46,544 bases of DNA, taken from the IMG/VR virus record IMGVR_UViG_2851955134_000005, one strand, 5' to 3'. Under the pieces are notes generated by a model. That model worked only from the letters and a program-made list of their open reading frames with translations. It was not told where the DNA came from and did no database searches. Source of the DNA: a virus. Its lineage: Duplodnaviria > Heunggongvirae > Uroviricota > Caudoviricetes. The translations under genes and the position numbers were made by a program. Shown in pieces: positions 39,508 through 43,187 of this stretch. The number at the start of each line of letters is the position of its first letter. Position 1 is the stretch's first letter.

Positions 39508-41865
39508 ATGGCAGCAGTAAAAATCTCAGGTGTGCTGAAAGATGGTGCGGGAAAACCAATACAGAACTGCACTATTCAACTGAAGGCAAAGCGTAACAGC
39601 ACCACGGTACTGGTGAACACGGTGGCCTCTGAAAATCCGGATGAAGCCGGGCGTTACAGCATGGATGTTGAGTATGGCCAGTACAGCGTCACCCTGCTGG
39701 TTGAAGGTTTTCCGCCTTCACATGCCGGGATCATTACCGTCTATGAAGGTTCCAGACCCGGTACGCTGAATGATTTTCTCGGTGCCATGACGGAAGATGA
39801 CGTCATGCCGGAGGCATTGCGTCGTTTTGAGGCAATGGTGGAAGAAGCGGCACGCAACGCCGAAGCCGCCTCTCAGAGCGCAGCGGCGGCAAAGAAATCC
39901 GAAACGGCTGCGGCATCATCGAAGAACGCGGCGAAAACCTCAGAAACGAATGCAGCTAACAGCGCACAGGCGGCAGCGGCCTCGCAGACTGCATCGGCAA
40001 ACTCCGCGACAGCAGCCAAAAAATCAGAAACCAACGCGAAAAATAGCGAGACAGCCGCAAAGACGAGCGAAACCAACGCAAAGTCCAGCCAGACGGCAGC
40101 GAAAACCAGCGAAACGAATGCCAAAGCCAGTGAAACTGCGGCGAAAAATAGCCAGAATGCAGCAGCCGAAAGCGAGAGTGTGGCAGCTGGTTCTGCGACT
40201 TCAGCAGCTGGATCAGCAACTGCTGCGGCTAACAGCCAGAAAGCAGCGAAGACGAGCGAAACTAACGCAAAGTCCAGCCAGACGGCAGCGAAGACCAGCG
40301 AAACGAATGCCAAAGCCAGCGAAACTGCGGCGAAAAGCAGTCAGGATGCAGCAGCCCAAAGCGAGAGTGCCGCAGCTGGTTCTGCAACAGCGGCAGCTAA
40401 TAGCCAAAAAGCTGCAAAAACCAGTGAAACTAACGCAAAGACGAGTGAAACAAAAGCAGCAGCTAGCGAGACAGAAGCAACGTCAGCCGCAACAAGAGCA
40501 GAGAATGCAGCCCGGATTGCAGAAGATGCCGCTGATCCTGCTTCTGTCCCTCCGCTTCCTGATATCTGGCTACCCTTGAATGATTCTCTGGAAGCGATAA
40601 CAGGGTATGCCCCGGGCTATAAAACAATAACCATCGGCAGTGATGAAATAACAATGCCTGTTAATGGCATATGCCAATTTAGCCGGGCTTCATCTGCAAC
40701 GTATATTGATAAGTCCGGGCATATTACCGTGGCAGGGAATAACGTTCCTCGTTTTGAAAAATATGGTTTGCTGATAGAGAATCAGCGAACAAACATGTTC
40801 GTAAATAGTTTTAATCCTGATGCCTGGAATAAAAGCGGTGGTATATCTGTAACATCATCAACAGATGAATTTGAGTTTAAATATGGACGTTTCACGGTAG
40901 GAAGCGATATAGCAGGAACGACAACAGGGAGAAATATATGCACAGTTGCTGGTAACAAAGGCATAGATGTGACTGGCGATGATCAGTACAGTAAAGGTCC
41001 GTATGTTACCGCGTCGTTCAGGGTAAGAAGTGATCTCAATGTTCGCGCACGTATCCGTTTTGAACGGTATAACTCGGAAGGATACACCTTCCTTTGCGAC
41101 GCCTATTTGTCATTACAGACCCATGAACTACAAATTACTGGTGGCAATGCCCAGCTATTAACAGCAAACTTTGAAATCGATCCTGGTAGTGGATGGATAT
41201 ACTTTCAGGCAACACTGAAATGTCTGCCAGAATGGGGAATGGTTGGTACGCAGCTGCAAATTGCAGCCGACAGAGCTGTGGGGTCTTTTGCAACAGGTGA
41301 CTGGATAGAAGTAACCACCCCGCAATTCGAGTATGGTGCTTGTGCAACTTCCTTCATCATAACGACAACAGAGCCAGCGACTCGTGCATCAGATTTATGT
41401 AAATTTCCGCTGATGAAAAATATGTATACCATGCCTTTTACGTTCATGGTGGAAGTCCATAAAAACTGGTTTATTTCTCATAATGCTGCACCGCGTGTCA
41501 TTGATTCAGAAAATCACCAGTCCGGAGGCCCATTTATTATGGGGTTTGGTTCTTCTGGAACTATTAGTCAGGACGGTTATTCGTATTGCGATATAGGCGG
41601 GGCTAACCGACGTGTATATGAATCATGCGGAGTAAGGGATCTCGTTATGGGATTCAGGGTTAAGGCTGACGGCATGACATGCTCATTTGCAAATAAGCAT
41701 ATAAGCACTGAAACAAAAACAGTATGGAAATATATTCGTGAAGCAGCCGTGATTCGTATCGGGGGGCAAACGACGACAGGATTACGACACCTTAATGGTC
41801 ATATAAAAAACCTCCGTTTCTGGAACAGAGCATTGTCAGATACGCAGCTTAAGGAATACGTATAA
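39508..41865 (+). CDS. side tail fiber protein (Stf-like N-terminus, divergent C-terminal domain)
   Basis: N-terminus MAAVKISGVLKDGAGKPIQNCTIQLKAKRNSTTV matches lambda Stf; internal Ala/Ser/Thr-rich repeats. Confidence 0.8.
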   Translation: MAAVKISGVLKDGAGKPIQNCTIQLKAKRNSTTVLVNTVASENPDEAGRYSMDVEYGQYSVTLLVEGFPPSHAGIITVYEGSRPGTLNDFLGAMTEDDVMPEALRRFEAMVEEAARNAEAASQSAAAAKKSETAAASSKNAAKTSETNAANSAQAAAASQTASANSATAAKKSETNAKNSETAAKTSETNAKSSQTAAKTSETNAKASETAAKNSQNAAAESESVAAGSATSAAGSATAAANSQKAAKTSETNAKSSQTAAKTSETNAKASETAAKSSQDAAAQSESAAAGSATAAANSQKAAKTSETNAKTSETKAAASETEATSAATRAENAARIAEDAADPASVPPLPDIWLPLNDSLEAITGYAPGYKTITIGSDEITMPVNGICQFSRASSATYIDKSGHITVAGNNVPRFEKYGLLIENQRTNMFVNSFNPDAWNKSGGISVTSSTDEFEFKYGRFTVGSDIAGTTTGRNICTVAGNKGIDVTGDDQYSKGPYVTASFRVRSDLNVRARIRFERYNSEGYTFLCDAYLSLQTHELQITGGNAQLLTANFEIDPGSGWIYFQATLKCLPEWGMVGTQLQIAADRAVGSFATGDWIEVTTPQFEYGACATSFIITTTEPATRASDLCKFPLMKNMYTMPFTFMVEVHKNWFISHNAAPRVIDSENHQSGGPFIMGFGSSGTISQDGYSYCDIGGANRRVYESCGVRDLVMGFRVKADGMTCSFANKHISTETKTVWKYIREAAVIRIGGQTTTGLRHLNGHIKNLRFWNRALSDTQLKEYV
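40078..40455 (+). repeat. in-frame tandem repeat inside stf (about two copies of a 189-bp, 63-aa unit)
   Basis: GCAAAGTCCAGCCAGACGGCAGCGAA... recurs at 40078 and 40267; protein repeat AKSSQTAAKTSETNAKASETAAK... Confidence 0.6.
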
Positions 41866-42134
41866 TGCGGGATATAACATTACGATTCGATAACAGAGAA
41901 CAGTTTAACGCAATTGTATATGACAGTGGCCTGTTCAGTCTTGAAGAAGAAAACGGGGTTCTTGTTGATGTTATTGGCTGCATTATCGATTACGAGGAGC
42001 CAGAAAACGAAAGATGTACAGGCATTGATCGCGGTGGTTTTTTCGTAAACATGAGGATTGTTGATAGCAGTAAAAACATATCTTCTTTAATGCCTTTCAT
42101 TACGACAGATCAGCATGTAAGGACATGGGCTTAA
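41865..42134 (+). CDS. hypothetical 89-aa protein between the two fiber genes (possible fiber assembly factor)
   Basis: TAATG coupling to the stf stop; no recognisable family. Confidence 0.4.
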   Translation: MRDITLRFDNREQFNAIVYDSGLFSLEEENGVLVDVIGCIIDYEEPENERCTGIDRGGFFVNMRIVDSSKNISSLMPFITTDQHVRTWA

Positions 42135-42146
42135 TGGAGTAAGGCA

Positions 42147-43187
42147 ATGGTTACAAAAACAGTAATTCCTGATGACATCAAAACGCTAAAATCCGATGTT
42201 AGTAAACTACAAAACGATCAAGGAAGCTACGCAACAAAATCATATGTAGACAGCAAAGATGAAACCGTTGGTGACTGGTCTGCTTCATGGTATCAGCAGG
42301 TATTGCCAACTAGCGGAGCTATATTTGGGCGAAAACTTCGCTCAACTCACAGGACGGCAGGTGTTGAGGATGCGTATTGCGAACTATACCTTAAAAAATG
42401 GATAGACAGTCCAGGGAACGCAATGGCGCGCCTTAACCTGAACGATAACGGGACAAACATTTGCTGGGACTTTACCAACCTTTACGGCGGAACAATGATC
42501 TTCCCTGGTACTTCAGGTTATCTGAAAATGGGGAACTGCCTTATGTCATACAGCAAGCGTGGAAGTAACGCGCTTATTAAATTTGATTACACCGACACAT
42601 TACAGATCAAATATGCTAATCATGGGTCAACCATGACATTAAACACACAGGGAACCGCTCACGCTGGCGTAACAACTCGACTATGGGGCAATTCTAGCCG
42701 TCCGGTTGTTTATGAAGTTGGCGTAGATGAGGCTCTGTATATGTTCTACGCACAGAAAACTACCAGCAATACCTACGAATTAACGGTTAACGGCGCGTGC
42801 AATGCAAGTGCATTTAATCAAGGCTCTGACCGAGATCTGAAAGACAATATTCAGGTGATAGATAATGCAACCGACCGCATTCGTAAAATGAACGGCTATA
42901 CATACACGCTTAAAGAAAACGGTATGCCTTACGCTGGTGTTATTGCACAAGAAACCCTGGAAGCCATCCCCGAAGCCGTAGGGTCTATGATGAAATATCC
43001 AGACGGCGGGAGTGGATTAGATGGAGAAGAAGGTGAACGGTATTACACTGTAGATTATTCTGGTGTTACTGGCTTGCTTGTTCAGGTAGCCAGAGAGTCA
43101 GACGACAGAATAACAGCACTGGAAGAAGAAAACGCAGAATTAAGACAAAGATTATCTGCAATTGAGGCGGCGCTTGCGTCTAAATAA
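42147..43187 (+). CDS. second tail fiber with C-terminal intramolecular chaperone (S74-like) domain
   Basis: C-terminal SDRDLKDNI ... GYTY ... coiled-coil tail, typical of autoproteolytic fiber chaperone domains. Confidence 0.6.
   Translation: MVTKTVIPDDIKTLKSDVSKLQNDQGSYATKSYVDSKDETVGDWSASWYQQVLPTSGAIFGRKLRSTHRTAGVEDAYCELYLKKWIDSPGNAMARLNLNDNGTNICWDFTNLYGGTMIFPGTSGYLKMGNCLMSYSKRGSNALIKFDYTDTLQIKYANHGSTMTLNTQGTAHAGVTTRLWGNSSRPVVYEVGVDEALYMFYAQKTTSNTYELTVNGACNASAFNQGSDRDLKDNIQVIDNATDRIRKMNGYTYTLKENGMPYAGVIAQETLEAIPEAVGSMMKYPDGGSGLDGEEGERYYTVDYSGVTGLLVQVARESDDRITALEEENAELRQRLSAIEAALASK

What the first reader, a model, noticed from the sequence alone, without database searches (positions are those of the whole stretch)
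41865..43187. Second tail fiber with an S74-like C-terminal intramolecular chaperone, preceded by a coupled 89-aa gene
The C-terminus of the 346-aa protein carries SDRDLKDNI, GYTY and a terminal coiled coil, features of autoproteolytic fiber chaperone domains. The gene occupies the place of lambda tfa. An 89-aa ORF is coupled to the stf stop (TAATG) just upstream. Two distinct fibers suggest dual receptor specificity.
Basis: inference. Interest (0 to 1): 0.45.

Follow-up and report, generated by a model that had tools for sequence, protein, structure and literature searches.

The report
Swappable tip of a side tail fibre
The 346-residue protein is a real tail-fibre protein with a self-cleaving folding domain, but it is most likely the exchangeable outer piece of the prophage's side tail fibre rather than a separate second fibre; this is a common, partly described arrangement.

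Summary
An 89-aa ORF (41865-42134) overlaps the stf stop codon (TAATG). A 346-aa ORF (42147-43187) carries a Peptidase_S74 intramolecular-chaperone domain (Pfam E 9e-14, residues 227-278), a Ser227/Lys232 pair and a C-terminal helix.

The window is an E. coli lambdoid prophage at dusA. Stf, the small ORF and the 346-aa gene form a three-gene cassette. The same cassette occurs in lambdoid, Queuovirinae, T1-like and T5-like siphoviruses, including BASEL phage IrisVonRoten (Gp22/Gp23/Gp24).

- The small ORF always follows a homologue of the Stf C-terminal 440 aa (57 of 57 loci).
- Genes at the third position share only about 15 N-terminal residues (M-x-T-x-T-x-I-P-x-D-I-x-x-L-K). After that they vary: several S74 fibres, a gp37-like tip with its own Tfa, or no gene.
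- A sister prophage at dusA differs from the window only between codon 15 of this gene and its end.

The 346-aa protein is therefore most likely a swappable distal receptor-binding subunit that plugs into the Stf/small-protein unit. This is inferred, not shown. The 89-aa protein is an Stf-linked accessory of unknown fold class. The gene is present in about 9% of complete E. coli genomes. It is a new member of a known kind.

The parts
39508..41865 (+). stf, the proximal side tail fibre (785 aa from ATG 39508; the mechanical ORF begins at GTG 39460, 801 aa). It has an N-terminal virion anchor, an Ala-rich repeat shaft and a C-terminal head of about 440 aa.
   Evidence: PF08400 phage_tail_N, E 2.5e-66, at residues 19-148 of the 801-aa ORF. 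PHROG 1419 matches full length. The start at 39508 follows the RefSeq annotation of the identical prophage.
40540..41862 (+). Stf C-terminal module (ORF residues 361-801). This part is shared by all versions of the cassette. It contains a domain like the RcGTA head-spike fibre (residues 438-643, nt 40771-41388) and a terminal domain whose tail motif (IGGQ..G.RHL.GH..N.R.W) recalls, from memory only, concanavalin/LamG-type lectin domains.
   Evidence: NCBIfam NF048003 GTA_spike_fiber, E 2e-12. PDB 6TB9 Rcc01080, E 6e-4. A homologue lies immediately upstream of the small ORF in 57 of 57 IMG/VR loci. It is 45% identical to IrisVonRoten Gp22 over 743 aa. Pfam Laminin_G did not hit at E<=0.1; 'lectin-like' for the last domain rests on that recalled resemblance and on the galectin-like description of Gp22 in PMC11990801.
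41865..42134 (+). 89-aa acidic protein (pI 4.4), translationally coupled to stf through TAATG. It is an obligate companion of the Stf C-terminal module; its function (assembly factor or connector) is inferred.
   Evidence: PHROG 1361 (unknown function), E 1e-30. No Pfam, NCBIfam or PDB match. It is 33% identical to IrisVonRoten Gp23. Co-occurrence with the Stf C-terminal module is 57 of 57. The AF2 model is beta-alpha-beta-beta-alpha-beta with pLDDT 69.
42147..43187 (+). 346-aa fibre protein made of an N-terminal plug, a coiled coil, a variable beta-rich body, a T4 gp34-like trimer segment and an S74 chaperone domain.
42147..42191 (+). Codons 1-15 (MVTKTVIPDDIKTLK): the constant N-terminal adaptor motif M-x-T-x-T-x-I-P-x-D-I-[KT]-x-L-K. 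This is the proposed docking plug.
   Evidence: The motif is shared by otherwise unrelated third-position genes. It is kept despite many synonymous differences, for example 10 synonymous against 4 non-synonymous differences within 17 codons relative to KurtStettler. The left recombination breakpoint with the sister prophage L014 is at window 42190.
42191..43220 (+). The exchangeable cassette: the third gene from codon 15 onward plus the short intergenic stretch. The otherwise near-identical dusA prophage L014 carries a 227-aa S74 fibre here instead.
   Evidence: blastn of window against L014: 96.8% identity for 38001-42190, no match for 42191-43220, 99.6% identity for 43221-46544. The class B gene has PF13884 at residues 109-165.
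42267..42446 (+). Most variable stretch of the mature protein among close family members (residues 41-100). This is a candidate specificity region.
   Evidence: Mean pairwise identity is 0.51-0.58 here, against 0.8-0.9 in residues 141-320.
42825..43184 (+). S74 intramolecular chaperone domain (residues 227-346). Ser227 (nt 42825-42827) is the predicted nucleophile and cleavage site and Lys232 (nt 42840-42842) its partner. The C-terminal helix covers residues 304-345 (nt 43056-43181). Predicted products are a 24.9-kDa mature protein and a 13.2-kDa chaperone fragment.
   Evidence: PF13884, E 9e-14, starting at residue 227. S227, D228, R229, L231 and K232 are conserved in at least 90% of 27 homologues. 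6F45 alignment. Helix from the AF2 model. Masses. Cleavage itself is inferred.

Best explanation
The 346-aa protein is the exchangeable distal receptor-binding subunit of a composite side tail fibre. It is not an independently anchored second fibre.

**Proposed mechanism**
1. stf, orf89 and orf346 are arranged as one co-directional unit downstream of J and lom, with no strong promoter match between them, so they are probably co-transcribed late. orf89 is translationally coupled to stf.
2. Stf trimers attach to the tail tip through their PF08400 N-terminal domain. They end in a head of about 440 aa with lectin-like domains.
3. The 89-aa protein works with that head, as an assembly factor or a connector.
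4. The 346-aa protein trimerises from its C-terminus under the control of its S74 chaperone domain. That domain then cuts itself off at Ser227, leaving a 226-residue mature protein.
5. The mature trimer plugs its conserved N-terminal 15 residues and short coiled coil into the Stf head/orf89 unit. This adds a second, swappable binding module, probably for a surface glycan.

**Status of each step**
- Shown: the domain assignments, the gene linkage and the cassette exchange.
- Inferred: the transcription, the physical docking, the cleavage, the receptor and the role of orf89.
For: **S74 domain**
- Pfam E 9e-14 with the Ser227/Lys232 pair.
- Profile hits to S16 gp37 (6F45) and MYRF (7DC3).
- The residues just before the chaperone domain match the T4 gp34 C-terminal trimer region, E 5e-7.

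**Linkage**
- 57 of 57 small-ORF loci have an Stf C-terminal homologue ending at the small ORF.
- 80 of 80 loci with the N-terminal motif have a small-ORF homologue ending no more than 40 nt upstream, plus the Stf C-terminal module.

**Variable third position behind a constant N-terminus**
- 346-aa body plus S74.
- 227-234 aa coiled coil plus S74.
- 231 aa plus S74.
- 576-583 aa plus S74.
- 330-340 aa gp34/gp37-like tip followed by its own Caudo_TAP chaperone.

**Independence from virion type**
- The cassette occurs behind three different fibre anchors: PF08400 in lambdoid phages and Queuovirinae, a T5 pb1-like N-terminus in IrisVonRoten and HMD-P4, and another N-terminus in T1-like contigs.

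**Direct cassette swap**
- A sister dusA prophage differs from the window only between codon 15 of the third gene and its end.
- The N-terminal motif is kept despite many synonymous differences.

**Precedent**
- PMC11990801 presents AlphaFold-Multimer predictions of IrisVonRoten's T-shaped fibre Gp24 and describes it as attached to the proximal fibre Gp22, whose galectin-like domain protrudes.
- The window's Stf, orf89 and the N-terminus of orf346 are homologous to Gp22, Gp23 and the N-terminus of Gp24.

**Transcription unit**
- The promoter scan found no excess of sigma-70-like sites across 39300-43950: 6 found against 7.3 expected.
Against: - There is no physical evidence of docking. No multimer model could be run here.
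- The AF2 monomer model of the 346-aa protein is poor (pLDDT 57) and Foldseek found nothing significant.
- Gene adjacency can arise from co-transfer alone.
- Several lineages carry Stf plus the small ORF with no third gene: the roughly 53-kb prophages near zntB/dbpA, and L062/L063. The Stf head therefore works without a distal partner, and the small protein is not simply a connector.
- Comparing modules with and without a third gene showed no signature of a docking site.
- The 80 of 80 reciprocal test sampled mostly close relatives of the window's allele.
- In phage PhiR47_1 the gene is split into 294 aa plus 37 aa. The record lists ECOR13 as host, which suggests the gene may not be needed for propagation there; I did not check how that phage was obtained.
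Confidence: 0.65

Rival explanations
1. An independent second tail fibre. The 346-aa trimer would attach directly to the tail tip or to J, separately from Stf, giving two kinds of fibre on one virion.
For: It is a separate gene with its own ribosome-binding site. Phages with two independent receptor-binding proteins are common (section read). Stf has its own probable binding domains.
Against: The protein has no PF08400 and no other anchor domain. The same 15-residue N-terminus is found in lambdoid, Queuovirinae, T1-like and T5-like phages, whose fibres carry three different virion anchors; what these loci share is the Stf C-terminal module and the small ORF. The N-terminal motif was not found away from that pair in 80 of 80 loci.
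Confidence: 0.12
2. A chaperone only. The 346-aa protein would help Stf fold, as GenBank labels such as 'endosialidase chaperone' and 'putative lateral tail fiber chaperone' imply, and would not be part of the virion.
For: Annotations in ESCO3, KurtStettler and HMD-P4. It lies downstream of stf, near where lambda has tfa.
Against: By established knowledge of endoNF, T5 pb1 and S16 gp37, S74 domains act in cis on the polypeptide upstream of them. That upstream part is 226 residues, resembles T4 gp34 and shows allelic variation. In L057/L058 the same position holds a gp37-like fibre tip that needs its own Tfa. The position therefore encodes fibres, not chaperones.
Confidence: 0.05
3. The 89-aa protein, not the Stf head, is the physical connector (a hinge like T4 gp35/gp36) that receives the N-terminal plug. 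This is a variant of the main model that differs in which protein forms the joint.
For: The gene order proximal fibre, small protein, distal fibre mirrors T4 g34-g35-g36-g37 (established knowledge). The small ORF lies upstream of every third gene that carries the N-terminal motif. IrisVonRoten Gp23 is annotated 'tail fiber protein'.
Against: The small ORF is retained where there is no third gene. Small proteins only about 30% identical to each other pair with nearly the same N-terminal plug. The predicted fold is a generic ferredoxin-like fold. Its position right after stf, and its coupling to it, parallel the way Tfa follows the gp37-like fibre in L058, which favours an Stf-specific assembly role.
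Confidence: 0.3
4. A decaying or non-functional passenger gene in a defective prophage.
For: Truncated and frameshifted copies exist: PhiR47_1 (294 + 37 aa), many 254-aa fragments, and a 38-codon remnant in L035/L037.
Against: The ORF in the window is intact and its catalytic residues are conserved. The gene is covered at 80% or more in 514 of 5426 complete E. coli genomes. Near-identical or homologous genes are kept in phages of lytic lineages: ESCO3, KurtStettler and IrisVonRoten.
Confidence: 0.05

Closest known systems
Lateral tail fibre locus of T5-like phage IrisVonRoten (Bas32): Gp22, Gp23, Gp24 (PMC11990801)
   Same: The three-gene order and the homology match. Window Stf residues 147-801 are 45% identical to Gp22, orf89 is 33% identical to Gp23, and the first 17 residues of orf346 are 12/17 identical to Gp24. 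Gp24 also ends in an intramolecular chaperone domain and is described as attached to the proximal fibre, whose galectin-like domain protrudes.
   Different: The virion anchor differs: T5 pb1-like N-terminus there, lambda Stf PF08400 here. The distal subunit differs: a 574-aa T-shaped fibre with two binding domains there, a 346-aa protein with an unrelated body here. The host phage is virulent and 112 kb there, a temperate lambdoid prophage here. The paper does not assign a role to Gp23.
Branched L-shaped tail fibres of T5-like phages DT57C and DT571/2: LtfA and LtfB (PMC4728585, PMC10713586)
   Same: A second fibre protein with an S74 domain attaches through the first fibre by a short conserved N-terminus and adds a second O-antigen specificity. 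This is the same logic as proposed here.
   Different: LtfA has its own S74 domain and none of the papers read here describes a small intervening gene. The LtfB N-terminus resembles phiEco32 gp15, which is a different plug. DT57C was not among the phages with a small-ORF homologue. The comparison is functional, not one of membership.
S74 intramolecular chaperone domains of K1F endosialidase, T5 pb1 and S16 gp37 (PF13884)
   Same: C-terminal position, a Ser-x4-Lys pair at the start of the domain and a helical tail. There is significant sequence similarity to the solved S16 gp37 domain.
   Different: The mature part here is very short (226 aa) and begins with a docking motif rather than a long shaft or a virion anchor.
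Lambda stf-tfa
   Same: Position downstream of J and lom. The Stf N-terminal domain is homologous.
   Different: This Stf ends in lectin-like domains rather than a gp37-like tip. There is no Tfa (Caudo_TAP) gene. The tfa position is taken by an unrelated 89-aa gene and then by a separate fibre gene.
T4 long tail fibre gp34-gp35-gp36-gp37
   Same: A multi-protein fibre whose genes lie in physical order. The 346-aa protein has a segment homologous to the gp34 C-terminal trimer region. The L057/L058 alleles have Gp34_trimer and gp37-like domains.
   Different: The phage is a siphovirus, there is no homology to gp35 or gp36, and far fewer residues are involved.

Membership tests
Peptidase S74 / intramolecular chaperone auto-processing domain (PF13884) | Sequence match to the family model above the curated threshold | tested here: met
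   52 bits against a cut-off of 22, E 9e-14, residues 227-278 matching model positions 1-57 of 58.
Peptidase S74 / intramolecular chaperone auto-processing domain (PF13884) | Catalytic Ser and a Lys five residues later at the start of the domain | tested here: met
   S227 and K232 (SDRDLK). Both are conserved in at least 90% of 27 aligned homologues and align to SDRRIK of S16 gp37 in 6F45.
Peptidase S74 / intramolecular chaperone auto-processing domain (PF13884) | C-terminal position in a trimeric fibre or spike protein, followed by a helical tail | tested here: met
   The domain covers residues 227-346 and is the last in the protein. The AF2 model has a helix at 304-345 with block pLDDT 82-89. 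The preceding residues match the T4 gp34 trimer region.
Peptidase S74 / intramolecular chaperone auto-processing domain (PF13884) | Autoproteolytic release of the domain after folding | not testable with these tools
   This needs a western blot or mass spectrometry. Predicted products are 24.9 and 13.2 kDa.
Peptidase S74 / intramolecular chaperone auto-processing domain (PF13884) | S74 three-dimensional fold | tested here: inconclusive
   The AF2 monomer model has mean pLDDT 57 and the chaperone core (residues 224-269) is below 50. Foldseek against PDB gave no hit with E <= 0.001.
Lambda Tfa / Caudo_TAP tail fibre assembly protein (PF02413) | Match to PF02413 | tested here: not met
   Neither the 89-aa nor the 346-aa protein hits PF02413 at E <= 0.1. 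A true Caudo_TAP gene was recognised in L058, E 5e-37.
Lambda-type side tail fibre Stf | N-terminal virion-attachment domain (PF08400) in the 346-aa protein | tested here: not met
   PF08400 is found only in the 801-aa Stf ORF, not in the 346-aa protein.
Composite lateral fibre cassette of the IrisVonRoten Gp22/Gp23/Gp24 type | Proximal fibre with the conserved C-terminal module of about 440 aa | tested here: met
   45% identity to Gp22 over 743 aa. The module is present in 57 of 57 small-ORF loci.
Composite lateral fibre cassette of the IrisVonRoten Gp22/Gp23/Gp24 type | Small gene of about 90 aa overlapping or abutting the fibre stop codon | tested here: met
   TAATG overlap. 33% identity to Gp23, E 9e-13.
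Composite lateral fibre cassette of the IrisVonRoten Gp22/Gp23/Gp24 type | Third gene 9-12 nt downstream that begins M-x-T-x-T-x-I-P-x-D-I-x-x-L-K | tested here: met
   MVTKTVIPDDIKTLK, 12 nt after the small ORF's stop. 12/17 identical to Gp24.
Composite lateral fibre cassette of the IrisVonRoten Gp22/Gp23/Gp24 type | Physical attachment of the third protein to the proximal fibre | not testable with these tools
   No multimer prediction or experiment was available here. In the literature it is only predicted (PMC11990801).
DT57C-type branched fibre (LtfA/LtfB) | LtfB/phiEco32 gp15-type N-terminal 45 residues and the LtfA docking region | not tested
   The sequences were not fetched. DT57C was absent from the tblastn hits of the small ORF. 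It is used only as a functional analogy.

The most novel reading that the evidence does not exclude
The 15-residue N-terminus, together with the Stf head and the 89-aa protein, would form a universal plug-and-socket. Siphoviruses of at least four lineages, including lambdoid prophages, would use it to swap distal receptor-binding modules. The 89-aa family would be a previously unrecognised class of fibre assembly or connector protein that replaces Tfa for lectin-tipped fibres. If so, any binding domain fused behind the 15-residue plug could be mounted on lambda-type particles.
Probability: 0.4. Interest if true: 0.6.

Novelty: new member of a known kind. Interest (0 to 1): 0.38.

Why it matters
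Side tail fibres help set which strains a lambdoid phage, or a lambda-based delivery particle, can reach. Here the variable part is a short cassette that starts exactly after a 15-residue constant plug and brings its own folding domain. If the docking model holds, this is a compact natural system for retargeting fibres without touching Stf, and it explains why this spot is a recombination hotspot in E. coli prophages. It also corrects database labels: these genes are often called 'chaperone' or 'hypothetical protein', and the 89-aa partner has no assigned function. As a finding in its own right, an S74-tipped fibre gene in a prophage is ordinary.

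Tried and rejected
- **AF2 model of the 346-aa protein** from a 27-sequence alignment. Mean pLDDT was 57 and pTM 0.28. Foldseek against PDB gave only marginal hits to T4 gp34 (E 0.011, TM 0.19). The model was not used for fold claims.
- **AF2 model of the 89-aa protein.** pLDDT was 69. Foldseek against PDB gave generic ferredoxin-like hits (ribosomal protein S6, HPPK) with E >= 0.04. BFVD gave only uncharacterised phage proteins. No function could be inferred.
- **Exhaustive HMMER search with the 89-aa protein.** It found six proteins. One 246-aa hit (P0125) reads like a frameshifted run-through of the stf 3' end and the small ORF. Weak matches to cadherin-like repeat proteins (E 1e-6 to 1e-7) were judged compositional or chance.
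- **Stf heads and small proteins from cassettes with and without a third gene.** I compared them to look for a docking-site signature. There was none, and my ORF extraction failed for the zntB-type prophages.
- **Literature.** I searched for the PhiR ECOR13 phages and for a receptor-prediction preprint. Nothing was relevant.
- **Tfa homology.** I considered it for either gene and rejected it.

Full report
**Where we are.** The window is a lambdoid prophage of E. coli integrated at dusA. The stretch 41400-43600 is 100% identical to the chromosome of APEC strain E18055 (O2:K1:H7). Annotation there, and the ORF list, give this order: J (35297-38776), lom (38844-39443), stf, an 89-aa ORF, a 346-aa ORF, a membrane ORF of about 95 aa, dinI (-), integrase (-), dusA.

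**Checking the observation.**
- The stf stop and the start of the 89-aa ORF overlap as TAATG at 41863-41867.
- The 346-aa ORF begins 12 nt after the small ORF's stop, behind a TAAGG ribosome-binding site.
- SDRDLKDNI lies at residues 227-235 and GYTY at 250-253.
- The last 40 residues are a predicted helix.

These features are not chance. Pfam PF13884 (Peptidase_S74) scores 52 bits against a cut-off of 22, E 9e-14, starting exactly at Ser227. PHROG 4563 'tail fiber protein' matches over all 346 residues. A profile of 27 homologues hits the solved chaperone domain of phage S16 gp37 (6F45, E 1.7e-9) and the related MYRF domain (7DC3, E 0.008). It also matches the T4 gp34 C-terminal trimer region just upstream of the chaperone domain (E 5e-7). 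Ser227 and Lys232 are conserved in at least 90% of the family. They have the five-residue spacing of the catalytic pair known from K1F endosialidase and T5 pb1 (established knowledge). The S74 part of the interpretation therefore stands at the sequence level. The fold itself could not be confirmed, because the monomer AF2 model was poor (pLDDT 57) and Foldseek found nothing significant.

**What the neighbourhood shows.** The three genes recur together in very different phages:
- lambdoid phages Tritos and PhiR47_1, and the N15-like PhiR46_1;
- the Queuovirinae ESCO3 and KurtStettler;
- T1-like contigs;
- T5-like phages HMD-P4 and IrisVonRoten.

Across the first four phages compared, the 346-aa protein stays 84-97% identical. 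The small protein drops to about 32% identity and Stf to 40-66%. What these fibres share is only the C-terminal 440-530 residues. Their N-terminal virion anchors differ: PF08400, T5 pb1-like, or a third type.

**Systematic test.** I searched IMG/VR with an alignment of the small proteins and obtained 57 loci.
- In 57 of 57 loci a homologue of the Stf C-terminal module ends at the small ORF.
- The gene 9-12 nt downstream is not constant. It is a 346-aa S74 protein of the window's type; or a 227-234 aa coiled coil plus S74; or 231 aa plus S74; or 576-583 aa plus S74; or a 330-340 aa gp34/gp37-like tip followed by a genuine Caudo_TAP chaperone; or nothing.
- Where there is nothing, the small ORF is the last phage gene, next to host genes I recognised by eye as zntB and dbpA, or it is followed directly by the membrane ORF.
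- All third genes except one (L065) begin with the same motif, M-x-T-x-T-x-I-P-x-D-I-[KT]-x-L-K.
- The reciprocal search with that motif gave 80 loci. All 80 have a small-ORF homologue ending within 40 nt upstream, plus the Stf C-terminal module. This sample is dominated by close relatives of the window's allele.
- The motif is kept at the protein level despite many synonymous changes. It is therefore not only a patch of recombination homology.

**A direct cassette swap.** IMG/VR locus L014 is the same dusA prophage as the window. It is 96.8% identical from 38001 to 42190 and 99.6% identical from 43221 to 46544. Between those points it carries the 227-aa gene instead of the 346-aa one. The left breakpoint falls at codon 15 of the third gene, exactly at the end of the motif. 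The constant N-terminus therefore belongs with the backbone, and everything after it is the exchangeable unit.

**Interpretation.** A 15-residue N-terminus that is independent of virion type, always sits behind the Stf head and the small protein, and is followed by interchangeable fibre bodies is what one expects of a docking plug. The most economical reading is a composite, possibly branched, side tail fibre. Stf is the proximal part and the 346-aa protein is a swappable distal part. The distal part folds with its own cis-acting S74 chaperone domain and then loses it by cleavage at Ser227.

This matches what the BASEL authors describe for IrisVonRoten: Gp24, a fibre ending in an intramolecular chaperone domain, attached to the proximal fibre Gp22, whose galectin-like domain protrudes and may be an extra binding domain (PMC11990801). 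The window's Stf, orf89 and the orf346 N-terminus are homologous to Gp22, Gp23 and the Gp24 N-terminus. The DT57C LtfA/LtfB branched fibre is a functional precedent that uses a different plug (PMC4728585, PMC10713586).

Stf here has its own likely glycan-binding head. Residues 438-643 match the RcGTA head-spike fibre domain (NF048003, E 2e-12; 6TB9, E 6e-4). The composite fibre could therefore carry two binding regions. Among close relatives, residues 41-100 of the 346-aa protein vary most and are a candidate specificity region.

**The 89-aa protein.**
- It has no Pfam, NCBIfam or PDB match.
- It belongs to PHROG 1361, of unknown function.
- It is acidic, pI 4.4.
- It is predicted at moderate confidence as a beta-alpha-beta-beta-alpha-beta domain, with no informative structural neighbours.
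- It is tied to the Stf head (57 of 57 loci), is translationally coupled to stf, and persists where there is no third gene.
- In L058 the order is fibre, small ORF, gp37-like fibre, Tfa. Each fibre is followed by its helper.

I therefore lean towards an Stf-head assembly factor that takes the place of Tfa. A structural connector remains a live alternative. This is inference only.

**What is against the model.** Docking is not shown. Adjacency can come from co-transfer. Lineages that have Stf and the small ORF without a third gene show that the head works alone. No docking-site signature separated modules with and without a third gene. In phage PhiR47_1 the gene is split into 294 and 37 aa. Its record lists ECOR13 as host, which suggests the distal subunit may not be needed there, though I did not check how that phage was obtained.

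**Novelty and score.** The gene is common: it is covered at 80% or more in 514 of 5426 complete E. coli genomes. RefSeq already names it 'tail fiber domain-containing protein'. An S74-tipped fibre gene in a prophage is ordinary, and the composite architecture has a published, predicted counterpart. What I did not find stated in the papers read is the constant 15-residue plug, the exact cassette boundary, the obligate pairing of the Stf head with the small protein, and the spread of this cassette into lambdoid prophages. I rate it a new member of a known kind, interest 0.38. There is a 0.4 chance that it is a general plug-and-socket system that would be useful for retargeting lambda-type particles.

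Noticed in passing
window 39470-39491 (and 39460-39508): A strong terminator-like hairpin (8-bp stem, 7 GC pairs, then a T run) lies between lom and stf, inside the 5' end of the mechanical GTG-started stf ORF. The real stf start is probably ATG 39508, as annotated in the identical RefSeq prophage.
   Followed up: partly
window about 39880-40500 (within stf): The Ala-rich shaft is made of internal repeats (AKTSETNA-type); window 40042-40272 and 40212-40440 cross-match at about 80%. In strain E18055, PGAP splits this stf into an N-terminal pseudogene and a 'phage head spike fiber domain' CDS, whereas the window ORF is intact. The repeat region appears prone to length change or assembly error.
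   Followed up: partly
window 43215-43517 (+): A membrane ORF of 95-100 aa (PHROG 1443, unknown function, hydrophobic segments) follows the fibre cassette in many lambdoid prophages, whatever the third gene is. In L062/L063 it directly follows the small ORF. It might be a superinfection-exclusion or moron gene; this was not examined.
   Followed up: no
window about 43558-43638: In the identical RefSeq prophage, RefSeq annotates an 81-nt 'capsid protein' pseudogene fragment with an internal stop between the membrane ORF and dinI. It looks like a recombination scar.
   Followed up: no
window 43635-46168: The right end of the prophage is dinI (-), a tyrosine integrase (-), then dusA. This is the dusA integration site. 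Sister prophages at the same site carry different third-position fibre genes (L009, L014).
   Followed up: partly
L002 (phage PhiR47_1) 5748-6788: The S74 gene is split into 294-aa and 37-aa ORFs in a deposited phage genome whose record lists ECOR13 as host. The intact chaperone domain, and probably the whole distal subunit, may therefore not be needed on that host.
   Followed up: partly
L035 and L037, 5274-5387 and downstream: Only the last 38 codons of the S74 gene remain after the small ORF. They are followed by the membrane ORF, a second stf-like gene and a possible assembly gene (judged from the translations, not scanned). This looks like a deletion and re-acquisition scar at the cassette site.
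   Followed up: no
L009, L014 and related loci, 5283-5966: The 227-aa allele has its S74 domain at residues 109-165. Its mature product would be only about 108 residues of coiled coil with no obvious binding body. What such a minimal 'fibre' does is unclear.
   Followed up: no
protein P0123 (64 aa, E. coli): A truncated copy of the small ORF is named 'CP4-44 prophage; predicted disrupted hemin or colicin receptor' in a source database. The name looks like a mis-transfer.
   Followed up: no
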